A stretch of 41,378 nt of DNA from a virus (taxonomy: Duplodnaviria > Caudoviricetes): positions 1 to 41,378 of the IMG/VR virus record IMGVR_UViG_3300030102_000576; one strand, written 5' to 3'. Positions 334-31,845 of this stretch are shown piece after piece. The first letter of the stretch is position 1; the number at the start of each line of letters is the position of its first letter. The position numbers were made by a program, and so were the translations under genes. The notes beneath the pieces were generated by a model, which ran no database searches, was not told the DNA's origin, and saw only the letters and a program-made list of their open reading frames with translations.

Positions 334-478
334 GTTGTTGCTCCAACTCAGCTATACGTTTAACAATAGCTCTATATTGAACTATGTATGATTTAGGATT
401 CAGTCCTTCAAATCTGTACTTAACTTGTAGGTTCATAAGTTTCTGTTTGTAGTTTGCAATTTCTAGAATGTTGCTCAT
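326..478 (-). CDS. small hypothetical protein (50 aa)
   Basis: Manual translation MSNILEIANYKQKLMNLQVKYRFEGLNPKSYIVQYRAIVKRIAELEQQHD. Its stop overlaps the rusA start and it fills the operon gap. Confidence 0.6.
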   Translation of the reverse strand: MSNILEIANYKQKLMNLQVKYRFEGLNPKSYIVQYRAIVKRIAELEQQHD

Positions 479-1223
479 TTCTTTTTGGGTACGGTTTAAT
501 AAATTCTGCTATTTGTTTTTTGTAGTGTTGCTTTTCTTTTTTGTTACCTAAAAAATAAAAGTATCTACCCTTACTAGCCTGCGGTACAAACTCCGCATCA
601 GGAAATCTTTTTAATATTTCTTCTTGACTTTCTGTGCCATACCTTATGTGCATTGTACGACTACCATATATTTTACCGTTTATTTTTACACCAAACCTAT
701 CGTTCTCCCTACTGTTTACTTTAGGATTGTTTTCTCTCATAGATCCTATGTAAACAAAATTGCAGGCTTGATAGATAGTACCTATCTCACCTGCTTGAGG
801 ATCTACAGTTGCTGTAACAACCTTGTATTTTTCTGGCAACATCTTCATAGATGTAGTTATTAATTTGGATGCACTGTGCGGATGCGACCAATGTACACAA
901 GCACCTCTTGATAACAAGATCATCTTGCCTGTGTAATCGTACTTGTCCCAGTGCCCTAGGTTCTCACTGTATTCAACCGAATAAACTACAGCTCCACCAA
1001 GGTTACCTTCAAAGTAAATACCAAAACAATACTTGACCATAGCAGGCATACATTGCAACCACTCATATCTTTGTATAAGGTTTGCTGCTGTCTTGTAATC
1101 AATGGGTTTGACTTCAGCTTTTTTAATGTCTGTGTCTACCTGCTCCCACCATTTGCCAAACAAGTTCCATGCATCTTCCTCGGCCATCTTATCTTTGATA
1201 AGTTTTTGATGTGCAACTGTCAT
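420..1223 (-). CDS. mom: Mom-like (GNAT-fold) DNA adenine modification protein
   Basis: Motifs LSRG...SKLITTSMKML, TVDPQAGEIGTIYQACNFVYIG, K-x-RY and near-terminal PYPK match the phage Mu Mom family pattern. Confidence 0.75.
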   Translation of the reverse strand: MTVAHQKLIKDKMAEEDAWNLFGKWWEQVDTDIKKAEVKPIDYKTAANLIQRYEWLQCMPAMVKYCFGIYFEGNLGGAVVYSVEYSENLGHWDKYDYTGKMILLSRGACVHWSHPHSASKLITTSMKMLPEKYKVVTATVDPQAGEIGTIYQACNFVYIGSMRENNPKVNSRENDRFGVKINGKIYGSRTMHIRYGTESQEEILKRFPDAEFVPQASKGRYFYFLGNKKEKQHYKKQIAEFIKPYPKRNEQHSRNCKLQTETYEPTS

Positions 1224-2320: not shown

Positions 2321-2985
2321 ATGTCTTGCTCTCCTTCAAAGTAAGTTTGATTTGACAAGACTAATTTCTTAACCTCTCTGTCACTAATTACCCACTCTGA
2401 TTTAAAACCACGCCATCCTCTAACCTGACACATAGTTAAAGCTTCTTCCAATGTGATACTAGCTTTTGCTGCTTCACTTGTTATACCTTTAAGTGCTGTT
2501 TCTGTTAATGGTGCTTTGACGTTCTTCCTATGTTTTAAAAAATCATCCCAAGTTTTTTTAGTAACAGTGTTGGGACGCTTTAGCGTCTTACTAATTGGTT
2601 TATGTTTCTTGGTTATTGGTTCTTGTTTATTGGTTGGTTGAACGTCTGTCGAACTGGCGTTAGATCTAGCAAGAGCTGATGCTTTGCCTGCCCTTGATGC
2701 TGCTTGTACCTTGGCGTGGTACTTTTCTATCTCTTCATCTGCTCTACGCAGTGTCCACCCTTTGCCAGTGTCTAAATTAAAATACTCTGTCAGTATTTGA
2801 TTAACCTCTGTCGGATTGTCTGGCATCCTGATAAGTCGGGCAACTTGTGTTACATCTTCGGGCAATGGTTTTTCATGCAAATAGTAAATGTCCATGCATC
2901 TTCTATATGCGAGATCTTCAAGCAAACTTAAATGGCCTGTGTGGCTCATGTAATCGCTGATGTTGTAGGAAAAATAATGCATCAT
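2317..2985 (-). CDS. phage replication initiator, DUF1376/YdaU family (lambda O analogue)
   Basis: MHYFSYNISDYMSHTGHLSLLEDLAYRRCMDIYYLHEKPLP N-terminus and WDDF...RK...APLT...GWRGFKSEW C-terminal domain. Start moved to ATG 2985, which gives ATGA coupling with the upstream gene. Confidence 0.8.
   Translation of the reverse strand: MMHYFSYNISDYMSHTGHLSLLEDLAYRRCMDIYYLHEKPLPEDVTQVARLIRMPDNPTEVNQILTEYFNLDTGKGWTLRRADEEIEKYHAKVQAASRAGKASALARSNASSTDVQPTNKQEPITKKHKPISKTLKRPNTVTKKTWDDFLKHRKNVKAPLTETALKGITSEAAKASITLEEALTMCQVRGWRGFKSEWVISDREVKKLVLSNQTYFEGEQDI
2594..2635. repeat. six tandem imperfect heptamers in the initiator linker; candidate replication origin
   Basis: ATTGGTT TATGTTT CTTGGTT ATTGGTT CTTGTTT ATTGGTT read directly. 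Lambdoid origins lie within the initiator gene. Confidence 0.55.
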
Positions 2986-3179
2986 ACTGTCGTGTTCGCT
3001 TCTAACCATTCTTGTACATGGATTCTCATGTACCGAACCAAGCCCCTAGTTTTAAAAAACTTGGGACCTGTTCCGTTTGACCTCCACTTACGTAAAGTTT
3101 GTTCGTTGACTTTTAAATGGTCAGCTACTTCTTTTGAAGTAAGTAATGTAATATCTAGCGGTGGTTTACTGTTGGTCAT
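2982..3179 (-). CDS. excisionase/AlpA-like HTH DNA-binding protein
   Basis: LLTSKEVADHLKVNEQTLRKWRSNGTGPKF...VRY...VQEWL is the typical HTH_17/MerR-like Xis pattern. Confidence 0.8.
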   Translation of the reverse strand: MTNSKPPLDITLLTSKEVADHLKVNEQTLRKWRSNGTGPKFFKTRGLVRYMRIHVQEWLEANTTV

Positions 3180-4017
3180 TGTTTACCTCCTTATGCTTTC
3201 TAGATTCTTGTTGACCTTTTAATTCTTCAATTAAATTATTAGCCATAACCGATGCATCAGATTCATCTAAACCAATAGATTGTTTTAATCGAGACAATGG
3301 TTTAGTTTCTTCTGGAGGTGTAATGTCTACAGGTTTTCTGTCTGTATCAAATCCAGAAGCTTCTAAGTCTGCTTTCATTACTGCGTCAACGTCAGCAGAT
3401 GATGGTAGTTTTTTGGACATTCTTCTGATAACAGTTTTCTTTGCCATCTCGTCATACCACTCTTTCCAAGGACCATATTGGCCTGACCTAGAAGTTCTCC
3501 TAACTTTCTCTACCTCATCGATTGTCATCACTTCCCTGTAAATACCACCGTCTTTTGTTTTGGCTATTGCGTAAACAGCAATCTGTCTACCTCTGTCACC
3601 AAGTAACAATGGTTTGTGAACGATACGCTCATCATCTCCTAATTCATAATCAAAAAGATCTTTTTCGTATACAACATGGGCAGCTATGCTCATAAGCATT
3701 CCACTGTTACGAATCTTTTTCAGCAGGCCGTTAAGCATGGGCATATAAACCACAGACTTACCACCCTTACCACCAAAGATTACAGGAGCTGCTTCTCTAC
3801 CATCGAGAAGCAATCCATCTTGTGCAGCTTTCATGCAAGTGCCATACAAACTTTTTCTGTCTGCTTGTAATAGGTCAGGATTCATCTGCACTGCTGTAAT
3901 TGTTGTGCGGATAAATTTTTCTACAGGTATTTGTGGTGGCAAAGCAGCTTCAAACTCTTTGCTCATAGATGTTAGTGCCTGACGCACTGCGTCCATTGGT
4001 GTGATTGATGATGTCAT
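3166..4017 (-). CDS. recT: RecT-family single-strand annealing recombinase
   Basis: ALPPQIPVEKFIR, SLYGTCMKAAQDGL, VYEKDLF, GPWKEWYDEMAKKTVIRR..K.LP.S are RecT signatures. Confidence 0.93.
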   Translation of the reverse strand: MTSSITPMDAVRQALTSMSKEFEAALPPQIPVEKFIRTTITAVQMNPDLLQADRKSLYGTCMKAAQDGLLLDGREAAPVIFGGKGGKSVVYMPMLNGLLKKIRNSGMLMSIAAHVVYEKDLFDYELGDDERIVHKPLLLGDRGRQIAVYAIAKTKDGGIYREVMTIDEVEKVRRTSRSGQYGPWKEWYDEMAKKTVIRRMSKKLPSSADVDAVMKADLEASGFDTDRKPVDITPPEETKPLSRLKQSIGLDESDASVMANNLIEELKGQQESRKHKEVNNDQQ

Positions 4018-21124: not shown

Positions 21125-23509
21125 ATGGCATTACAAGTTCCCTCAGTACAAATAGAAGGTGGTGGTGTACCTATGCTTCAAGGCGGTTCAGTAACACCGC
21201 AACAAGATACTGTCACAGGTGACATAAAAAAACTAGGACAAGCACAACAACAAGCAGGACAACAAATATCAGCAATAGCAGAAAAGCTACAAGACGAGCG
21301 TGACGATGCTGTTTTTAAGGAAAAACATAATGAATATGTAAAAGCAGTAAGCGAAAAAAAATTAGAGTTTGCAAGATTACAAGGTAAAAATGCAATTGAA
21401 AAAGTTAGTGAAAGAGAGGATGGAACACCAATAACAAAACTTGATCAGGTAAAACAAGAGTTATCTGATTTAATGACGGAGTTTGAAGGGCAACTAGAAA
21501 ACGAAGATCAAAAATATATGTTTAGGACAGCATCAGCTAGTACTCTAAATTCTGCTAGTACAATGATGACTAAGCATGAAATTATAGAAGGACAGAAATA
21601 TCAAAATGCACAACACAAAGCAGGTATAGATTTAGCTGCTGATACTACAGGACAATCGTATGAAGATTGGCATGACCCAGAAGGTGAATTTAAAAAGAAT
21701 GCTTTAGTAGGTCTTAAATTAATTGCAGATCATGGCATGAGAACAGGTATGTCAGAGCTGCAAATACAAGCAGAAGTTGTCAAATTTCAAAACAAAGTAC
21801 ACTCATCTACACTTAATCAAATGATGGGTAATGATGATTACTTAGATGCAAAAGCTTATTTAGAACAAGCGGTATCAACAGGCAACATGGATGCAGCTAC
21901 ATATTCATTGTTTGCAGAAAAAGTAGAAAAAGGTTATGACGAATTTAAAGGTAAATATAAAGCAAACGCATTATTAAATTTTGAAGGTAATACAAATGAT
22001 GGTAATGCTTTGACCAGTATTAACAGAGTGCTGTCGTTAGATAGTTTTAATCAATACGACAATGGTGCAGGTGAACACGTTGAGTATGGTCACGTTCCAT
22101 CTAAACATAATACAAATGGAATGACGGAAGAAAATGCAAAAGTAAATTTAGAAAATTTGCAAAAAACTTCTAAGTTTTATGTAGAAGGTCAAGGTATTTC
22201 TTTAGAACCACAGCATCAAACTTCGCATTTATTTATGGCACAAATTTTTGGTGTTGAAAAAGCAGATCAATTTTTTAGTAAAGCTAAAAAGGATCTAGGA
22301 GATATTGATAAAGAAAGAATGAAAACAGATGCAACTTATGCAAAACAAGTTAATCAAAGTTTATTACAAGGTGCAATAAATTATGCAAACAATTCAGCTA
22401 AAGAAAAATTTACTGAAGACAATTCTAGATACGCAGATATTGTTGCTAATGATTTAGAAATATTAAAAGGAGAAACAGATTACACAGGAGAACAGATTGT
22501 AAGAAGAGATGACAAAACAGGATTAGAATTAAAAGCTGATTTAAGAAAAAAATTAAAAGAAAGAATCCAAGATAAAGATCAACTTGAGTATGCACTAGCT
22601 GAATTAGATTCTAATTACGATGATATAAAAACCGATAGAGAAGAAGCATATGATGCAGATTTAGAAGAAGCATACAAAATAGCGTTTGCAAAACCAAATG
22701 GATTTAAAGACATAAAAGATATTGATAGATTTTTACCAGAGGATATTACAAAACTAAAAAATGGTCACCCAGAAAAATCTGAAACATCAGCAATAAATGA
22801 ATTATTGAGTGATCCTATGAATCTAAAAAACATAGAACAATACCGACATCGTTTAACGCAATCTGATTATTTTACTTATAAACAAAAGGCAGAAAAACTT
22901 GGTGGATCTTCTAGTGGAGCAAACTACATAGAAGCATCAGGTGACGCTGCTGTTTTTAAAGATCAATTAAGATTATATGATTTAGGAGATTTACTTGGTT
23001 CTAAAGAAAATCAGAAAGCAGGTTATAACAAACTTATGGTTACTTGGGAAAACGAAATAGATCTTGCACAAATAGCAAATAATAATAAAAAAATTAGTCG
23101 TGCCGAAAAAACATTATTACTAAAAAAAATATTAGAAGATAAAGTCTTTAGGACTAATTCTTTAAATCGTGATGGCGGTGTAAATAGGTTCTTGTTATCA
23201 GAACAAGCATTAAAAGCAGCATATGTAAAAGTTGTAAACCCAAATACTATGAAAGTAGAAAACGTAAAATTATCACATATACCAAGAGAGATAAACACAG
23301 AATTAGAAAAACAAATGAGAGCTAAAGGTTTGACGGTTACAGGTCAGACGTTAGTACAAAAATGGGTTGACTATGGTAAGCCAAGAAATCTAGATGATTT
23401 AGAAGAATATGTAGACAGAGTTAAAACAACAGATAATTTTGTAGAAGCTTTAAAGTCAAGTGGTAGTGGAGAGGACAATAGTTTTTCAGCATACAGAGGT
23501 AGTTTATGA
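21125..23509 (+). CDS. internal virion (ejection) protein, T7 gp15-like position
   Basis: 794-aa charged helical protein; assigned by synteny only. Confidence 0.65.
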   Translation: MALQVPSVQIEGGGVPMLQGGSVTPQQDTVTGDIKKLGQAQQQAGQQISAIAEKLQDERDDAVFKEKHNEYVKAVSEKKLEFARLQGKNAIEKVSEREDGTPITKLDQVKQELSDLMTEFEGQLENEDQKYMFRTASASTLNSASTMMTKHEIIEGQKYQNAQHKAGIDLAADTTGQSYEDWHDPEGEFKKNALVGLKLIADHGMRTGMSELQIQAEVVKFQNKVHSSTLNQMMGNDDYLDAKAYLEQAVSTGNMDAATYSLFAEKVEKGYDEFKGKYKANALLNFEGNTNDGNALTSINRVLSLDSFNQYDNGAGEHVEYGHVPSKHNTNGMTEENAKVNLENLQKTSKFYVEGQGISLEPQHQTSHLFMAQIFGVEKADQFFSKAKKDLGDIDKERMKTDATYAKQVNQSLLQGAINYANNSAKEKFTEDNSRYADIVANDLEILKGETDYTGEQIVRRDDKTGLELKADLRKKLKERIQDKDQLEYALAELDSNYDDIKTDREEAYDADLEEAYKIAFAKPNGFKDIKDIDRFLPEDITKLKNGHPEKSETSAINELLSDPMNLKNIEQYRHRLTQSDYFTYKQKAEKLGGSSSGANYIEASGDAAVFKDQLRLYDLGDLLGSKENQKAGYNKLMVTWENEIDLAQIANNNKKISRAEKTLLLKKILEDKVFRTNSLNRDGGVNRFLLSEQALKAAYVKVVNPNTMKVENVKLSHIPREINTELEKQMRAKGLTVTGQTLVQKWVDYGKPRNLDDLEEYVDRVKTTDNFVEALKSSGSGEDNSFSAYRGSL

Positions 23510-26500
23510 CTGATTCTTTTAATGATTTAGTAAACCGCAGACCTAATCAAAACATAGGACACTTTAGCCAAAAAACTGGTTTTGATTATTTATTGCAAAG
23601 AGAAGAAGACGAAAGAGAAAAGCAAATAAAACAAATGTTAAAACTTATCTCTGACAAAGATCCTGACAGAGTAGGTGAAGCACAGAAATTAGCAGCAAGT
23701 TTAAATTTACCTGCAAGCGTAGCGTTAGACAGTGATGATGCCGTACAACGACTTGCACAGTTAAATAAACAAAAACAAATAGATGAAGTCAGATTTGCAG
23801 GTGTAAATCCTATTTTAGAAAGACAGATGTTAGATAAAAATTTTGCTGCTATAGCACACGATAATGTTGAAGAACTTGGATTAATTGAAGGTACATTTAC
23901 AGGTATAAAAAATCTGCCTGACAACTTAGCTCAAGGTTTTGAAAAAGGCAGATTAATGGACGAGCTAGGTCGTTTAGGATTTAGACAACAATTAGGCAGA
24001 ATAGGTGGTACAGAAGAAGGGCAAAAAGTCATAGAACGTGTTAACGAAATAAACAAACGTATACAAGAATTAGACAGTGATGGTTCTGGTATGTGGGAAA
24101 ACACATCAGAATTTGTTGGGCAGTGGTCTAAGACAATGCCTAAAGCTATAGGATTTGGTACAGCAACTGGTGCGACTTGGGCAGTAGTTGGTGGTGCAGT
24201 CGGTGGTCCTTTTGCTCCTGCTACAGCAAAGGGTGGTTTTGTGTCAGGATTTATGGCAGGTTTTGTCGGCTCTATGACAGTCGATGGTTTTATTGTAGAA
24301 AGTGGTCATGCATACCAAGAAATGATTAGTAGTGGTGTAAGCCATGAAGTGGCCAGAAATGTAGGCTTTGGTGTGGGTGCAGTGAACGCAGCTCTAGAAG
24401 TAGTTGGTACAGGATTTGCTGTTGCACCATTTAAAAAATTATTAGTAAGAGAGGTAACAAAAAAAGTTAGCAAACAATTATTAAAACCAACATTCTCAAG
24501 AGTCTTAGTTGAAACATCTAAAGATGCATTTACATCTTGGGCAGGAGAAGTTGGCACTGAAGTTTTACAAGAGCTGTCAAATATTGCAGGTAACGATATA
24601 GCAAAATCATTTGAAAAAGGTGAATTTGAAACTTTAATACAAACAGAACAAGGTCGCAGTGAAATAGCAACTAGATTAGTTCAAATCATACAGAAAGTAG
24701 GAACAGGAATGATACCACTAGCAGGTCTTGGTGGTGCTTCTACATTTATTGGAAATTATGGACGTATAACAAAAGCAGAAAAGGAACAAACTTTTTTAAA
24801 AGACTTGATGAATTTATCAAGCACTAATAAGACAAGACTAAGAAATCCTAATTTCTTTCAAACATATATGCAAAAAGTTGCTAATGGCAATGACGTACCA
24901 AATGTATTTGTAGATAACGAAAAATTTAACCAAGCCATGAAAGACACTGGTGTCACTATGGAACAGTTAGAATTGTTCGCACCAGATTTAGCAGACTCAA
25001 TAAAAGAATTAAATGGAGCAGGTGGTCAGGGAGATGTAGAGATTGAAACAGGATTCCTTGCATCAAAGTTAGGCGGTACAGATTTAGGCGATGCATTGCA
25101 ACCTCACATACGAGTTAAGTACGATAGTTTTTCTGCACAAGAAGCTTTTGAGTTTTCACAAAACAGAACTGATTTTACGCAACAAGCGTTAGACGTAATG
25201 GTAGAAGAAGACAAAAAAGGTCAAGCATTTAGAGAAGAAGCAGAGCAAGTAAGAAAAGATATGGTAAGGCAAATATCTGCTTTAAATTTAAGATTTTCAA
25301 AACAAACAATTAATAATTACGCAGCATTTTATAGAGACTTTATTGTTACACAAGCAAATGCTTTAGGAATGTCACCTCTTGAGTTTGCAGAAAAAAATGG
25401 TTTAAAAGTCATAACACAACAACAAGCAACGACTAGATCATTAAGTAGATTGTTTAATCAAAATGGTACAGCCAAAACAACTAGTGCTGCTTTTAAAAAG
25501 TTTTTTGGAAAATCAGTTTTAAAAAATAAAGACGGTACACCACAAGTACTAATGCATGGTACTGCTGATAGTATTGATGGTTTTAATTTAAATTACTCAC
25601 ATAAACGAGATAGTGGTTGGGGAGGATCAGGTGTTTATCTAATTGATAATGAAGTAATTGCTAACATAAATCAAAGCCGTAAAGAACAAAAGAAAATAAA
25701 CGGACAGTTAGTAAATGATGGTAAGGGCAAAAATATGATGCGATTATTCGCACGTTTAGAAAATCCATACTTTGCAACGCATGATGATAAACAAGCATTA
25801 ATGAACAATAGTAAAGAAGCATCAAATGCATTTAAAGAAAAATTAATTAACGAAGGCTATGACGGTATTATTTACAAACAAAAAGGTTTTAATGAATATA
25901 TTATTTTTGATAATGACGCAGTTAGATCAGAGTCTAATAGTGCTTTATGGGAAAATGAAATAGAACAGGCGTTAACTGAACAAGCCCTAGAAGAAGAAGT
26001 ATTTAACCAAAAACAAAAACAAGAACAAGGCAAACCAATTCCAGATTTTCTTGTTGGTATTGCAAAGCTTGCAAATAGTTTTAAATTTGCAGGACAAAAA
26101 CAATACCAAACTAATCGTGATTTTAAAGTTGCATTACAAGATAGACTCAAATCTGAAGCAAAAAAAGCAAGCGTTGATCTATCACAATTTACTGTAGAAG
26201 CACAAAAGTATTTAGTAAAAACATTATTAGAAGATGCAAAATTTGCATTAGAAACAAATCCTAATGCTGTTGGTTGGTATAACGAAAAAGTTACTAAGGC
26301 ATTGGCTGTACTATCAAAAATCCATCCCGAAATAGCTACAGACCCACAGGCTAAATTTGCATTTATTTGGGCACTAGCTAATACTTCCAATGGTTTGAAA
26401 GTAGATAAAAATTTTGAATTAGCACAACAAGCATATAGTTATTATTCAGAAAACGGAGTTATGCCAACAGACATTGGTATAGGAGATGCAAGTGCTGCAA

Positions 26501-29500
26501 TAAATAACAACATGAAATTGTTTAACAGATTAATGGATGAAAAAGGTTTTGAAGACTTTGAGCAATTTATGAAAACTATGCATACTGTCAAAGAAGTAGA
26601 AGCATATACTGGCAGTACTGTATCTGGCGAAAACAAAACAGAATTAGTTTATGGGGCAGCAGTTATGGGTCCTAAAATTGGTAATGGATTTTTTGCAAAC
26701 TTATATGGCAACTTTGAACAATTAACTATGGATAGATGGTTAATGCGTACATGGGGTCGCATGACAGGTACATTAATAACAGACTATACAAAACAAGCAA
26801 AAACAAAACGCACACAATTAAAAGGATTAATAAAAGGTTTATCTCTTAAAGATAAAAAAGCATTAGAAGCAATAATTGGTATAAAAATAAAACTCTCTGA
26901 TTTAGATGCGGTAGCAGTAGCAATACAAAAGGCAAGTATGAAACCTGCCAATAGAAAAGCTATGGCTAAGATTGCCACTATAGAAAATGTTAATAATGCA
27001 AATTACATTACAGAAATACTAGGTGACCCAAAAAGAAATATTGAAAGAATTGGTATTGGAGATGAAATACGTAAAGGTGGTAATGGTTTAGCCAAGTTTC
27101 TTGATGGGCAGAAAGAAGCACCAAGTGGACCTGTTGAAAGACGCAATATAAGAAAAGTATTTAATGAAGCGTTGACGATATTGCAACAGAGTGAAAAATC
27201 GCTTACAATGGCAGATCTACAGGCTCTTGTTTGGTATCCAGAAAAACGTCTGTATGATTCTGCAAAACTAAGTGAACAAGAACAGAATACAGGTTATGAG
27301 GATAACGAAGCACCTGACTATTCAAATGCTGCTGTTGACTTAGCACTTAAACTCGGTGTACCTGATGCCGAGATACAAACCACATTACAGGAGGTAGACA
27401 ATGAACTCAAACGTCAGGCCACTATCGGCACAGGAGGAAGTGAACTTGGAGAAGGAGCAGGAGGAACTATACAACGAGATAATATTGAAACAGACGAAGC
27501 AACAGGACTCCCCCTCAATCCAGACGGAACAGTTACCGTCTACCACCACACCAACAAACGAGCAGCAGAATCAATCAGAGAGTCCAGTGAACTTAGAAGT
27601 TCTGGAGAACCTGATGTCTACGTTACCACCAGAGATATCCCAGACACTGGCTATGGTGATACCTCAGTTGCAATCAGAGTCGACCCTTCTAGACTTAGTC
27701 TCGATGATGAATTCCCTAACGGACGAAGAGATTACAGACTCTCAGTTGGAAAGCCTAGAGGAACTATTCGAGTAGATGTAGGCGAATATTACGAAGATTT
27801 TAAAAAGCAAAGTGAAGTATTTTCACAGCAACAAATTCCTACTGAGGGTAATAGAGGACAATTTGATCCTAAAAAATTAACAGCAATATTAGGTCAGGAT
27901 GCTGATCTGTCTACTTTCTTGCATGAGTCAGCTCACTATATGCTGACTGTTATGGAAAATATAGTTTTATCTGGTCAGGGTACACAACAAATAAACGATG
28001 ATTTTAATGTATTACTAGATTTCTTTGGTGTTAAAGATGTTAAAGAATGGAGTAAGTTAACTACAAATAAAAAGAGAAAATACCATGAAGCATTTGCATA
28101 TAACTATGAACTATATTTATTTGAAGGCAAATCACCAAGTCTAAAATTAGCAGAACTATTTCATAGATTTAGTGGATACATAAGAGCTGTATATAAAACA
28201 GTAACTGGCGAGTTAAACGATGCATATAGAAAAGAAAATGGCAGAGATCTACCAATACTTACTGACGAAGTACGTGGTGTTATGGACAGATTACTTGCTA
28301 GTAAAGAGCAGATTTCAGAAGCACAAGCTGTATATGAAATGAAGCCTATGTTTGAAACGCAAGAGAGTAGTGGCATGAATGATGCTGATTGGGCTGAATA
28401 CACTAAAGCTATTAAAGCTGCAGTGGAAGCAGCAGTCATGTCTAATGATCAGGCAAACTTAAAACAAATGAAATGGCTTGATAACGCAAAAAGAGGTGTA
28501 TTAAAAGACTTGCAAAGAAAAGAAAATAAAACACGCAAAAGAGTAAAAGAAGAAGAAACTGTGAAAGCAGAAAACTTACCAATTTATAAACTAATAAAAT
28601 ATTTAAAAACAGGTGAAATCATTAATGCACAAGGTGAAAAGATAATACTAGAAAGTGGTTTTAAAATTAGTATCCCAGACTTACAAGAAATTTTGCCAGT
28701 AAATTTAAAATCAGAAAAAAATATTTATATGGCTTATAAAAAGAAATTACGTTACATGACTAGTGAAGATGGTATGTCTGTGTCAATGATTGCAGAGATG
28801 TTTGGTTTTGAAGATCCACTAGGAATGATTAATGAAATAGTACAAGTACAACCAATAAACGATTATATAAAAGATAAAACTGAACAACGTATGCTAGAAG
28901 AATACAGTGATTTAATGGACGAAAGAATAAAAGAATTACGTGTACAAGAAGCATTGCACAATGAAGCAAGAGCAAGATTTATATCTACAGAACTTAGATA
29001 TTTATCTAAATCTGGACAACCAGTTCGTTTCCAAGTGCAAGCTGCTAAACAAGTAGCAAGAGAAATATTGGGTGACAAAGTTTTAGCAGAAATACGTCCG
29101 ACTGTATTTGCACGTAACGAAGCAAGAGCTGCAAAAAAAGTTATGGAAGCATTAAAGAAAGGTGATTTAGAAGCAGCAATAGAAGCAAAACGAGGTCAGC
29201 TTATACAAAACCAATTAGCGAAAGAAGCAGTAGAAGTACATAAACGATTTGATAAATTTGAAAAATTAGCTTCAGATATATTTAATTCTGGCACAGATGA
29301 AAAGATAGCAAAATCTAGAAATATAAATAAAGTTAATGCTGCCAAGGCAATACTTGCACACTATGGATATGGTCCTCAAGTCGACAATCCTAGAAAATAT
29401 GTAAAGACATTAGAAACCAACGATCAATCTACATACGAACAAATATCACCATTGATAGATGATTTAACTGATTTAAGTTCTGCTGACGTTAAAGAGTTAA

Positions 29501-31845
29501 CAGGATATGAATTTGATACTTTATTTGAACAGATAAAAGGTATATATAGTCAGTCACGTAGGGAAATGCAAGTTTTGATTGATGGTAAAAAAATGGAAGT
29601 TAATGCAGTAGGGCAAGAACTAGCAGGGCTAATGGAAGATATGCCTTCGGGTGTAGGTGCAGATATAGGTAAGAGAGGGCCTGCAACTAGGAAAGAAAAA
29701 ACAATATTATTTTTACAAGGATTAAGATCTGTACTTAGAAGAGTAGAGCATTGGGCAGATGGTATGGATGGAGCTGTAAAAGGTGCTGCTAAAAAAGCAG
29801 TAGGTACAGTTATTAATCGTAAAGACGGTCAGGCAGGACAGTTTACAAGATACATCTGGCGACCAGTAAGAGAAGCATTAGACGAATTTAGACCATTAAG
29901 AAATAAATATACAAAGCGTTATTCTCAAATGGTTTCTGATTTAGAAGCAAAAGGTCGTATGTCTATGTCTGCCATACCTGCTCCAGAACTTGGATACACA
30001 TTTGGTAATGGCGGTACTGTATCAGGCAAAGCACAACTTCTTGGTGCAATGCTACATACTGGCAACGCTAGTAACTATAGAAAATTATTGTTAGGTAGAG
30101 AAGGATGGGGAAGCCTAAACGAAGATGGAACATTAAACGATACAAGATGGAAAAAGTTTATAGAACGTATGGAAGCAGAAGGTTATTTAAATAAAACCGA
30201 TTACGATTTTATACAAGCAGTATTTGATATGAACAATGAAATTAAACCCTTAATACAAAAAGCACATTTTGATTTGTATGGATATTACTTTAAAGAAATA
30301 GAACCTACACCAATGATTACTCAGTTTGGTGAATATCGTGGTGGTTATTTTCCTGCTAAAGGTGATCCTGTAATGACCAAGGCTATAGAGACAAGAGTAG
30401 AACTACAAGATCTTGATAAAGAATTTAGAAATTCATTACCTACAACTGGCAATAAATTTACAATTTCAAGAACAGAAAAGAATAGACCATTGTCTATTGA
30501 TTTACGTATTATGACTAAACATATTGATGACACATTACGCTATGCAACAGTGCAACCTGCAATAAGAGATGTATATAAAATTATTAAGCAGAAAGATTTT
30601 GAGAGAGAAATGAATCGTATAGATGATGAAACTTTAAAGACTGTTTTAATACCGTGGTTACATAGAGCTGCCACTCAGCAAACAACATTGTCAGGTATGC
30701 GTCCTGGTATGGATCAATTCTTTACAGCAGTTAGAAAGAGAACAGGTATCGGCATTATGTTTGCAAATATTACTAACGCAATGCAACAATTTACAGGTTA
30801 TTTTCCTGCGTTATTAAAAGTAGAAGCTAAATATTTGGCATCTGGATTTTCGCAATATTTAAAAAATCCTATGGCGGTACAGAATGAGATTGCATCATTG
30901 TCTACATTTATGGCAGAACGTCAAAGCAACCAAATTTTTGACATACAAGATACTCTTAATGATCTATTGATCAATCCTAATCAGTTTCAAAAATTAGAAG
31001 CATGGACAAGGAAGCATGGTTATTTTATACAGCAAGCATTTCAGAATCAGGTTGATAGCGTTGTATGGATAGGTGCATATGAAAAAGCATTAACAGAATT
31101 GCCAGTAGATATGTCAGATGTAGAAGCAAGAAAAGAAGCTATACGCCAAAGCGATGCTGCTGTACGTATGACACAAGACAGTTTAAATCCAGAAGATTTA
31201 GCAACATATCAAGTTGGTACACCATTTTATAAATCAATGGTTCAGTTCACTGGTTATTTCAATATGCTTGCTAATTTAAATGCTACAAATTACAAAAAAA
31301 TATTTAGAGATTTAGGATGGAAATCTAATAAAGGGCAATTAGCTTATACATTTTTATTTGGTTATATAATGCCTGCTGTAGTTTCTGAGATAATAGTTAA
31401 AGCGTTAGCAGGCGATTTAGAAGATGATGATGGTGATGGTTATTTAGACGATGTAGCAGGTTGGTTCTTTAGTTCTACATTACGAGCAGGTGCGTCATTT
31501 GTACCTATAGGTGCACCTGCAATAGCAGTAATTAATTCTTTTAATAACAAACCATATGATGATCGTATAACAACTAGTCCATCAATATCATTTTTAGAAG
31601 CATCTACTGTAGGTACTGTAAGAACACTAGTTAACCTGTTTGATCCTAATAAAGATGTAACTGGCAAAAATGTTAGAGATGTTTTAACTGGCTTATCATT
31701 ATTAACTAATATGCCGTTCACAGTATTAGGTAGACCACTCGGATACATAATAGATGTTGAGCGTGGCAAGATTGATCCAGAAAATTCTATTGATGCATTA
31801 AGAGGTGTCGTTACAGGTAAAGCAAGTCAAAGAAGTAGGAATTAA
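23506..31845 (+). CDS. giant internal virion/polyvalent protein (T7 gp16-like position) with ART-like, HhH-like and zincin modules
   Basis: 2779 aa with G/A-rich hydrophobic N-region; MHGT...GSGVYL...LENPY...GYDGII...EYIIFD; GPKIG...TMDRW; VYHHT...VYVTT; TFLHESAHY; hydrophobic C-region. Confidence 0.8.
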   Translation: MTDSFNDLVNRRPNQNIGHFSQKTGFDYLLQREEDEREKQIKQMLKLISDKDPDRVGEAQKLAASLNLPASVALDSDDAVQRLAQLNKQKQIDEVRFAGVNPILERQMLDKNFAAIAHDNVEELGLIEGTFTGIKNLPDNLAQGFEKGRLMDELGRLGFRQQLGRIGGTEEGQKVIERVNEINKRIQELDSDGSGMWENTSEFVGQWSKTMPKAIGFGTATGATWAVVGGAVGGPFAPATAKGGFVSGFMAGFVGSMTVDGFIVESGHAYQEMISSGVSHEVARNVGFGVGAVNAALEVVGTGFAVAPFKKLLVREVTKKVSKQLLKPTFSRVLVETSKDAFTSWAGEVGTEVLQELSNIAGNDIAKSFEKGEFETLIQTEQGRSEIATRLVQIIQKVGTGMIPLAGLGGASTFIGNYGRITKAEKEQTFLKDLMNLSSTNKTRLRNPNFFQTYMQKVANGNDVPNVFVDNEKFNQAMKDTGVTMEQLELFAPDLADSIKELNGAGGQGDVEIETGFLASKLGGTDLGDALQPHIRVKYDSFSAQEAFEFSQNRTDFTQQALDVMVEEDKKGQAFREEAEQVRKDMVRQISALNLRFSKQTINNYAAFYRDFIVTQANALGMSPLEFAEKNGLKVITQQQATTRSLSRLFNQNGTAKTTSAAFKKFFGKSVLKNKDGTPQVLMHGTADSIDGFNLNYSHKRDSGWGGSGVYLIDNEVIANINQSRKEQKKINGQLVNDGKGKNMMRLFARLENPYFATHDDKQALMNNSKEASNAFKEKLINEGYDGIIYKQKGFNEYIIFDNDAVRSESNSALWENEIEQALTEQALEEEVFNQKQKQEQGKPIPDFLVGIAKLANSFKFAGQKQYQTNRDFKVALQDRLKSEAKKASVDLSQFTVEAQKYLVKTLLEDAKFALETNPNAVGWYNEKVTKALAVLSKIHPEIATDPQAKFAFIWALANTSNGLKVDKNFELAQQAYSYYSENGVMPTDIGIGDASAAINNNMKLFNRLMDEKGFEDFEQFMKTMHTVKEVEAYTGSTVSGENKTELVYGAAVMGPKIGNGFFANLYGNFEQLTMDRWLMRTWGRMTGTLITDYTKQAKTKRTQLKGLIKGLSLKDKKALEAIIGIKIKLSDLDAVAVAIQKASMKPANRKAMAKIATIENVNNANYITEILGDPKRNIERIGIGDEIRKGGNGLAKFLDGQKEAPSGPVERRNIRKVFNEALTILQQSEKSLTMADLQALVWYPEKRLYDSAKLSEQEQNTGYEDNEAPDYSNAAVDLALKLGVPDAEIQTTLQEVDNELKRQATIGTGGSELGEGAGGTIQRDNIETDEATGLPLNPDGTVTVYHHTNKRAAESIRESSELRSSGEPDVYVTTRDIPDTGYGDTSVAIRVDPSRLSLDDEFPNGRRDYRLSVGKPRGTIRVDVGEYYEDFKKQSEVFSQQQIPTEGNRGQFDPKKLTAILGQDADLSTFLHESAHYMLTVMENIVLSGQGTQQINDDFNVLLDFFGVKDVKEWSKLTTNKKRKYHEAFAYNYELYLFEGKSPSLKLAELFHRFSGYIRAVYKTVTGELNDAYRKENGRDLPILTDEVRGVMDRLLASKEQISEAQAVYEMKPMFETQESSGMNDADWAEYTKAIKAAVEAAVMSNDQANLKQMKWLDNAKRGVLKDLQRKENKTRKRVKEEETVKAENLPIYKLIKYLKTGEIINAQGEKIILESGFKISIPDLQEILPVNLKSEKNIYMAYKKKLRYMTSEDGMSVSMIAEMFGFEDPLGMINEIVQVQPINDYIKDKTEQRMLEEYSDLMDERIKELRVQEALHNEARARFISTELRYLSKSGQPVRFQVQAAKQVAREILGDKVLAEIRPTVFARNEARAAKKVMEALKKGDLEAAIEAKRGQLIQNQLAKEAVEVHKRFDKFEKLASDIFNSGTDEKIAKSRNINKVNAAKAILAHYGYGPQVDNPRKYVKTLETNDQSTYEQISPLIDDLTDLSSADVKELTGYEFDTLFEQIKGIYSQSRREMQVLIDGKKMEVNAVGQELAGLMEDMPSGVGADIGKRGPATRKEKTILFLQGLRSVLRRVEHWADGMDGAVKGAAKKAVGTVINRKDGQAGQFTRYIWRPVREALDEFRPLRNKYTKRYSQMVSDLEAKGRMSMSAIPAPELGYTFGNGGTVSGKAQLLGAMLHTGNASNYRKLLLGREGWGSLNEDGTLNDTRWKKFIERMEAEGYLNKTDYDFIQAVFDMNNEIKPLIQKAHFDLYGYYFKEIEPTPMITQFGEYRGGYFPAKGDPVMTKAIETRVELQDLDKEFRNSLPTTGNKFTISRTEKNRPLSIDLRIMTKHIDDTLRYATVQPAIRDVYKIIKQKDFEREMNRIDDETLKTVLIPWLHRAATQQTTLSGMRPGMDQFFTAVRKRTGIGIMFANITNAMQQFTGYFPALLKVEAKYLASGFSQYLKNPMAVQNEIASLSTFMAERQSNQIFDIQDTLNDLLINPNQFQKLEAWTRKHGYFIQQAFQNQVDSVVWIGAYEKALTELPVDMSDVEARKEAIRQSDAAVRMTQDSLNPEDLATYQVGTPFYKSMVQFTGYFNMLANLNATNYKKIFRDLGWKSNKGQLAYTFLFGYIMPAVVSEIIVKALAGDLEDDDGDGYLDDVAGWFFSSTLRAGASFVPIGAPAIAVINSFNNKPYDDRITTSPSISFLEASTVGTVRTLVNLFDPNKDVTGKNVRDVLTGLSLLTNMPFTVLGRPLGYIIDVERGKIDPENSIDALRGVVTGKASQRSRN
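27401..27775 (+). CDS. candidate nested (+1 frame) acidic protein, 124 aa
   Basis: AGGAGGT at 27389-27395, 5 nt before ATG; host-frame codons avoid NTA+purine across the whole ORF; 24 D/E versus 4 K/R. Confidence 0.6.
   Translation: MNSNVRPLSAQEEVNLEKEQEELYNEIILKQTKQQDSPSIQTEQLPSTTTPTNEQQNQSESPVNLEVLENLMSTLPPEISQTLAMVIPQLQSESTLLDLVSMMNSLTDEEITDSQLESLEELFE

What the first reader, a model, noticed from the sequence alone, without database searches (positions are those of the whole stretch)
27389..27775. Overprinted acidic gene nested over an ART-like module of the giant virion protein: candidate hidden effector-inhibitor pair
Seen in sequence: AGGAGGT lies 5 nt before ATG 27401 and opens a 124-codon +1-frame ORF. 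It covers the Gly-rich linker and the whole VYHHT...VYVTT...GYG module and stops at the module's end. Stops in +1 arise from host-frame NTA+purine or NTG+A. In this stretch all 8 Leu codons are CTC/CTT, Val is GTT/GTC until the terminating GTA-G, and the only ATA is followed by C. Elsewhere the gene is full of TTA/ATA/GTA. The product has 24 D/E and 4 K/R. Inference: this is a selected dual-coding region. The acidic product could be an inhibitor, chaperone or nucleic-acid mimic that keeps the ART-like or upstream HhH-like domain inactive during virion assembly, and nesting would keep the two together during domain shuffling. Caveat: a recently imported GC-richer segment could also lack NTA codons, and GGA/AGA codons give acidic +1 residues automatically.
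Basis: partly seen in the sequence, partly recalled or inferred. Interest (0 to 1): 0.9.

Follow-up and report, generated by a model that had tools for sequence, protein, structure and literature searches.

The report
Hidden partner gene inside phage effector
A second, out-of-frame gene that evolution protects lies inside a marine phage's giant virion-protein gene, and its product is predicted to plug the conserved core of the domain encoded just upstream, so it likely works as a built-in inhibitor that travels with that domain.

Summary
The nested +1 gene is real. 73 of 80 relatives picked by the host module share its stop. All 84 in-clade segments have ATG, TTG or GTG at one column behind a Shine-Dalgarno motif. 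Stop-making codons are absent (0 of 1156), and the C-terminal half is predicted to be a four-helix bundle under purifying selection.

The gene follows the upstream DUF7178-like (HhH-like) domain, not the ART-fold module. Its N-terminal motif persists in 18 of 22 relatives with no ART module seen, and ART modules elsewhere lack the frame. Where the upstream domain ends its protein, a small acidic gene overlaps the stop, as in toxin-immunity pairs. Co-folding of residues 1-37 with that domain scored ipSAE 0.87 (best control 0.00), touching invariant GPKI and MDR residues.

Best reading: an effector-inhibitor cassette absorbed into a polyvalent ejection protein, extended here over a folded ART module. 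Translation, toxicity and inhibition are untested. The scan noted nested genes in giant virion genes before, on other DNA; my three look-ups for this family found none.

The parts
23506..31845 (+). Host gene: 2779-aa polyvalent virion protein, Bbp10 (BPP-1) homologue in its C-terminal half, probable ejection protein
   Evidence: ORF; LPD22 and ART-PolyVal above Pfam cut-off; phrog_9880; tblastn to BPP-1 bbp10, 27%
25525..25941 (+). ART-PolyVal domain of the host protein (aa 674-812), a separate ART upstream
   Evidence: PF18760, E 6e-9
26068..27399 (+). DUF7178-like domain (host aa 855-1298) with invariant GPKIG and TMDRW; predicted partner of the nested protein; HhH resemblance is recalled, not from a call
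   Evidence: Atlas 0.96 to a cluster with 33% DUF7178; weak PF23802 hits in 19 of 21 diverse members, below cut-off; invariants; co-fold
27389..27395 (+). Shine-Dalgarno motif AGGAGGT, written as host Gln-Glu-Val with codons rare in this gene
   Evidence: SD-like motif in 84 of 84 in-clade segments; Glu codon GAG in 83 of 84, against GAA 171: GAG 25 elsewhere in the window's gene
27401..27775 (+). Nested +1 gene, 124 aa, acidic
27401..27484 (+). Nested residues 1-28: older N-terminal motif (PxSAQQExNxExE) and helix; predicted to bind the DUF7178-like domain
   Evidence: alignment A5; profile hits in 18 of 22 loci with no ART module seen; ipSAE 0.87 vs control 0.00
27593..27769 (+). Nested residues 65-123: predicted four-helix bundle written over the ART module; clade-specific extension
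   Evidence: pLDDT 79-85; host-silent, nested-changing differences at 0.15-0.17 of the doubly silent rate, against 1.07-1.28 in flanks
27490..27786 (+). Small ADP-ribosyltransferase-fold module in the host frame (YHHT, EPDVYVTT, GYG, DDEFPxGRxD)
   Evidence: AlphaFold pLDDT 93.7; best fold matches RhsP2, TreTu, Tpt1/KptA; 450 relatives at 50% clustering

Best explanation
The +1 frame is a conserved second gene whose product is predicted to bind the conserved core of the DUF7178-like domain encoded just upstream, and it likely acts as that domain's cognate inhibitor in the phage-producing cell. Steps: (1) shown by sequence comparison: the domain and a small acidic +1 gene form a cassette; where the domain ends its protein the small gene overlaps the stop, and where the domain is internal the host frame reads through the small gene as a Gly/Arg-rich linker. 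(2) Inferred: a ribosome starts at the internal SD on the late mRNA, so both proteins are made together. (3) Predicted: residues 1-28 dock on the domain and touch GPKI and MDR. (4) Inferred: the domain is a DNA-acting, HhH-glycosylase-like effector that would harm the phage's own DNA or the producer cell; it is kept silent until the giant protein is packaged and injected without the partner. (5) Shown by comparison: in this low-GC clade the small gene runs on across the neighbouring ART module, and that extension is under purifying selection. What the extension does is open.
For: Gene is real: 73 of 80 loci picked by the host module share the stop; start is ATG 61, TTG 17, GTG 6 of 84 while the host residue varies N/L/D/S; synonymous diversity halves in the module, 0.16 vs 0.32-0.33; 0 host-silent stop differences vs about 11 expected. 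Tied to the upstream domain: a profile from the clade's first 32 residues alone hits the +1 frame behind the domain in 18 of 22 loci with no ART module seen, at GC 0.51-0.67, and these are the 18 best loci among 3920 stop-free stretches; L080 has domain plus ART module, and its +1 ORF stops before the module; in L355, L364 and L361 the domain is C-terminal and a 55-86 aa ORF overlaps its end. Co-fold: ipSAE 0.87, best of 3 controls 0.00; this mark was reached by 116 of 157 solved and 2 of 215 mismatched pairs (counts hold only roughly with my own alignments); runs share at least 85% of contacts; partner pLDDT at least 74. A small ORF right behind a toxin domain is the usual immunity layout in MuF toxins (PMC5576092, passages).
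Against: No translation, toxicity or inhibition data. The upstream domain has no tool-confirmed fold or activity: PF23802 hits are below cut-off and the HhH reading is recalled. The interface is no more conserved than the domain as a whole (0.69 vs 0.72) and is not basic. The 16 more distant loci (most at 30-40% domain identity to the window) carry +1 ORFs that the profile does not recognise (0 of 16), and in GC-rich loci open frames are cheap (+2 control open for 40 or more codons in 26 of 43, +1 in 42 of 43). Binding fits an activator, chaperone or packaging adaptor as well as an inhibitor.
Confidence: 0.58

Rival explanations
1. The nested protein binds the upstream domain as a folding chaperone, structural subunit or packaging adaptor, not as an inhibitor.
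For: The co-fold and co-inheritance evidence is the same. The best-scored contacts are helix-helix packing on residues 143-148, 296-304 and 328, away from the invariant motifs.
Against: The interface also includes invariant N108, G201-I204 and M221-R223. Partner sequences diverge much faster than the domain (mean column identity 38% vs 69%) and sit in the toxin-immunity position.
Confidence: 0.22
2. The C-terminal bundle inhibits the ART module it overlaps, and this is the gene's main job, or a second job of a two-headed inhibitor.
For: The bundle is predicted folded and is under purifying selection. In another lineage (L241, L243, L246) an acidic open +1 frame also covers the ART module, behind different upstream domains.
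Against: 10 ART-module loci read basic in +1, 8 of them with stops. L080 stops its nested ORF before the module. Seven segments have lost the module's EPxxY motif (Glu in 149 of 149 representatives) yet keep the bundle.
Confidence: 0.13
3. The +1 frame is reached by ribosomal frameshifting and gives a shortened giant protein with an acidic tail.
For: In some GC-rich relatives (L311, L318, L319) the +1 frame is open far upstream with no start codon at the window's column.
Against: In the window an in-frame stop lies one codon before the ATG, and SD plus start codon are kept in 84 of 84 segments.
Confidence: 0.04
4. Chance, or a recently imported GC-richer segment with no selected second gene.
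For: C-ending codons are raised in the overlap (22% vs 5% at four-fold sites), so the module may well have come from a GC-richer phage.
Against: Stop-making NTA 0 of 1156 while harmless NTA is 18% and A-ending four-fold codons 53%; start-codon switching; site-specific invariance beside freely varying sites.
Confidence: 0.03

Closest known systems
Polyvalent proteins of phages (Iyer et al. 2017, PMC5512222; passages read)
   Same: Giant multidomain protein among late genes, with LPD22 and ART-PolyVal domains; proposed to be packaged and injected.
   Different: The words 'overlap' and 'glycosylase' do not occur in that paper's main text; no nested partner genes appear in the passages I saw. Supplements not read.
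MuF polymorphic toxin-immunity pairs of temperate phages (PMC5576092; passages read)
   Same: Phage head protein with an effector domain followed by a small ORF under 150 aa (89.4% of 191 toxin genes there). L355, L364 and L361 have this layout.
   Different: No MuF domain here. The effector is internal, so the small gene is fully nested in +1. Toxicity and rescue are untested.
Embedded same-strand phage genes such as lambda Rz1 in Rz (recalled)
   Same: Fully nested +1 gene with its own start whose product partners the host-frame product.
   Different: Cytoplasmic acidic protein, not a lipoprotein spanin; it pairs with one domain of a giant protein and overlaps a second folded domain.
Small ART toxins RhsP2 (7rt7), TreTu (7zhl) and Tpt1/KptA phosphotransferases
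   Same: Best structural matches of the overlapped module: Foldseek probability 0.99, TM 0.54, E 0.035; Z 6.8, rmsd 2.9-3.0 A over 79-83 residues.
   Different: 11-18% identity, Z under 8, substrate unknown; internal module of a virion protein.

Membership tests
Overprinted (nested) protein-coding gene | Open frame longer than the host protein and codon usage allow | tested here: met
   0 of 20000 and 0 of 2000
Overprinted (nested) protein-coding gene | Conserved start, ribosome-binding site and stop in relatives | tested here: met
   84 of 84 starts and SD-like motifs; 73 of 80 shared stops
Overprinted (nested) protein-coding gene | Purifying selection on the second frame | tested here: met
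   the doubly silent class rests on only 13-18 differences
Overprinted (nested) protein-coding gene | Translated in vivo | not testable with these tools
   only short contigs from RNA libraries
Phage polyvalent protein (host gene) | Multidomain protein with LPD and effector domains among virion genes | tested here: met
Toxin-immunity (effector-inhibitor) pair | Small gene directly behind and co-inherited with the effector domain | tested here: met
Toxin-immunity (effector-inhibitor) pair | Direct binding to the effector | tested here: inconclusive
   model supports binding, ipSAE 0.87 vs best control 0.00; not a measurement
Toxin-immunity (effector-inhibitor) pair | Effector is toxic and the partner neutralises it | not testable with these tools
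   needs expression tests
DUF7178 (PF23802), upstream domain | Score above the Pfam gathering cut-off of 27 bits | tested here: not met
   window 14-15 bits; best E 6.6e-5 among 21 members; 0 of 5 records over cut-off. A relative, not a member.
HhH DNA glycosylase superfamily, upstream domain | HhH fold with catalytic Lys/Asp | tested here: inconclusive
   invariant GxK and TMDRW recall the motif; PDB sequence profiles gave no related hit; no fold search was run on this domain
ADP-ribosyltransferase fold, overlapped module | ART core with conserved His and aromatic NAD-site motifs | tested here: met
   weak Tox-ART-HYD1 (16 of 52) and PTS_2-RNA (18 of 52) hits below cut-off
ADP-ribosyltransferase fold, overlapped module | NAD-dependent transfer activity | not testable with these tools
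   needs an assay

The most novel reading that the evidence does not exclude
Polyvalent ejection proteins are built from effector-inhibitor cassettes whose inhibitor genes stay inside the giant gene as +1 'linkers'. Here one such inhibitor grew over the next effector and became a two-headed inhibitor: its N-terminal helix blocks an undescribed HhH-like DNA effector, and its de novo four-helix bundle blocks the ART domain encoded by the very same bases.
Probability: 0.15. Interest if true: 0.92.

Novelty: new variant of a known kind. Interest (0 to 1): 0.78.

Why it matters
It offers a testable answer to how a phage can make a giant protein full of effector domains without harming itself before injection. 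It also assigns a predicted partner to one of these hidden genes and gives a cloning handle on an uncharacterised domain family. The overlap is a natural case of two predicted folded domains written on the same 180 bases, with outgroups that show the states without overlap. Annotation misses these genes: the cultured Limnohabitans phage DC33 has an unannotated 71-codon +1 ORF at the same place.

Tried and rejected
Nested protein look-ups: no Pfam family, no PDB sequence hit, no Foldseek viral hit at E 0.001 or better, best VIA Z 5.5, within background for helical bundles, Atlas best 0.79 with low recognition. phrog_1371 (unknown function) matches 34 of 64 members weakly, best E 1.9e-6; it also rings in a control genome, so I give it no weight. 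All 72 protein homologues looked like the same nested product or gene-caller chimeras in the 11 that I read; no stand-alone form was seen, and longer or shorter forms were not searched. No match for either frame among 50,697 annotated phage records. A likeness between the L315 extension and the bundle was not confirmed: the alignment covers only the first 30 residues. RNA libraries hold only short contigs of the region, which cannot show transcription or translation. A branch-wise substitution count was not obtained, so selection rests on disjoint pairs of extant sequences. No conserved second nested ORF was found in the giant genes of the 88 other distinct segments (7 singletons). Paper searches showed no report of nested partner genes in polyvalent proteins and no paper naming DUF7178; the library lacks most subscription journals.

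Full report
Setting. The window is a 41-kb virus record with terminase, head-tail connector, GP7-type capsid and tail genes. Its closest host-assigned relative by capsid is Limnohabitans phage DC33 (85%). Gene 23506-31845 encodes 2779 aa with LPD22 and ART-PolyVal domains, and its C-terminal half matches BPP-1 Bbp10. That makes it a polyvalent virion protein in the sense of PMC5512222 (passages read). That it is ejected is inferred from position and family. 'Marine' rests on the seawater libraries that hold short pieces of the region.

SD 27389-27395, ATG 27401, stop 27775, the codon skew and the charge are as described. No synonymous re-coding kept the frame open (0 of 20000), and no gene-wide permutation gave so long a run (0 of 2000).

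It is a selected gene. Of 80 loci fetched with the host module (best 80 of 120), 73 share the +1 stop, one stops 11 codons early, one is cut by its contig end while open, and five lack the frame. Adding 77 loci fetched with the nested protein (a biased set) gave 89 distinct segments with the window. I set the five outliers aside. All 84 others have ATG (61), TTG (17) or GTG (6) at the same column, with an SD-like motif, while the host residue there changes among Asn, Leu, Asp and Ser. In the 78 segments with full flanks, synonymous diversity at conserved host columns is 0.16 in the module against 0.32-0.33 outside. In 37-38 disjoint pairs, host-silent differences that alter the nested bundle occur at 0.15-0.17 of the doubly silent rate (flanks 1.07-1.28; only 13-18 doubly silent differences), and none makes a stop against about 11 expected. 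Import of GC-rich DNA does not explain this: A-ending four-fold codons stay at 53%, harmless NTA at 18%, stop-making NTA at 0 of 1156. These cells count sequences, not independent events. C-ending codons are raised, so a GC-richer origin of the module remains likely.

Both frames are predicted to fold. The host module gives pLDDT 93.7. Its best matches are RhsP2, TreTu and Tpt1/KptA; by title most of the 50 VIA rows are ART-fold proteins as I recall them, though Z stays under 8 and no Foldseek E reaches 0.001. It is a mobile module with 450 relatives at 50% clustering, 65 of 149 in proteins over 1000 aa. The nested protein has a weakly predicted N-terminal helix, a disordered Thr/Gln/Pro stretch, and four helices at pLDDT 79-85 over residues 65-123, with no clear structural relative.

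The gene belongs to the upstream domain. Ten ART-module loci outside the clade read basic in +1, eight with stops. Conversely, relatives of the upstream domain that lack the module keep the nested N-terminus: a profile of the clade's first 32 residues hits the +1 frame right behind the domain in 18 of 22 such loci at E under 0.01, ahead of everything else among 3920 stop-free stretches (alignment; one of the 22, L300, ends soon after the domain). The 16 more distant loci were not recognised by the profile (0 of 16), but most show a +1 ORF that is often acidic and often starts inside the domain's last Asp-Tyr motif. Over 43 distinct segments the +1 frame is open for 40 or more codons in 42 and richer in D/E/Q than +2 in 42; the +2 control is open in 26, so length alone is weak evidence in GC-rich DNA (two loci had no anchor). 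L080 has domain and ART module, and its 51-codon +1 ORF stops before the module. In L355, L364 and L361 the domain ends a protein of about 790 aa and the small ORF overlaps its stop, the position of immunity genes behind MuF toxins (PMC5576092, passages). DC33 has an unannotated 71-codon +1 ORF with an SD at the same place, different in sequence.

Binding model. Domain (444 aa) plus nested residues 1-37, each as a 36-row alignment, scored ipSAE 0.87, 0.90 and 0.86; the three controls scored 0.00. The mark was reached by 116 of 157 solved and 2 of 215 mismatched pairs in the calibration, which holds only roughly for my alignments. Runs agree in at least 85% of contacts and partner pLDDT is at least 74. 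I found no solved relative of either chain, so a pass from memory is less likely. Contacts include invariant N108, G201-I204 and M221-R223, but the interface overall is not more conserved than the domain and is not basic. The model supports binding; it does not show it.

What the domain is. It is related to DUF7178 but below cut-off. Invariant GxK and TMDRW resemble the HhH glycosylase motifs as I recall them; no call confirmed the fold. HhH glycosylases act in phage-bacterium conflict on the host side (bioRxiv 10.1101/2025.10.29.685425, passages). No paper in the library names DUF7178.

Mechanism and rivals. I favour a cognate inhibitor made with the giant protein in the producer cell and left behind at packaging (0.58). 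A chaperone or structural subunit fits the same data (0.22). An ART inhibitor as main or second role (0.13) has some support: another lineage also keeps an acidic open frame over the module. Against it, seven segments lost the module's EPxxY motif yet keep the bundle. The bundle's role is untested.

Novelty. Nested phage genes and toxin-immunity pairs are known kinds, and earlier scan notes describe nested genes in linkers of other giant virion genes (unchecked). What this case adds is a predicted cognate domain, the terminal-overlap form of the same cassette, and extension of the nested gene over a second folded domain. My paper searches (listings and abstract starts, plus passages of three papers; no supplements) found no report of this arrangement.

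Noticed in passing
L240-L245, L247-L249 (start at 3001; 981 in L244): A second nested +1 family (motif DNPFVKGLKEQ) starts behind a different upstream domain. It is 55 aa and linker-only in L248 and L249, and 144 aa running over the ART module in L241-L244.
   Followed up: partly
L246 about 2785-3225: An acidic open +1 frame over the ART module, behind a third kind of upstream domain.
   Followed up: no
L089, L145, L148, L149, L152-L154 (ART module): The host motif SAGEPDVYV is replaced by YTTxSDPFF, losing a Glu found in 149 of 149 representatives, while the nested bundle changes conservatively.
   Followed up: partly
L069 1706-2617: Stand-alone 304-aa protein ending in the ART module; its +1 frame still resembles the nested protein but is broken by stops, like a relic.
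   Followed up: partly
L335 4091-4306 (Limnohabitans phage DC33, PQ492659.1): Unannotated 71-codon +1 ORF with SD behind the same domain in a cultured phage. The record's taxonomy line says Inoviridae, although its capsid protein is 85% identical to this window's GP7-type capsid.
   Followed up: partly
window 420-1223 (-): Mom-like DNA modification protein (phrog_1384); it could bear on what a DNA-acting effector must spare.
   Followed up: no
P0066, P0070, P0072, P0035, P0055: Database proteins that mix the host and nested frames, probably gene-caller frameshift artefacts caused by the dual coding.
   Followed up: no
L356 (about 130-250 codons past the domain): Two +1 ORFs in tandem behind the domain, 44 and 61 codons; the second resembles the tails of the L304 and L334 nested ORFs.
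   Followed up: no
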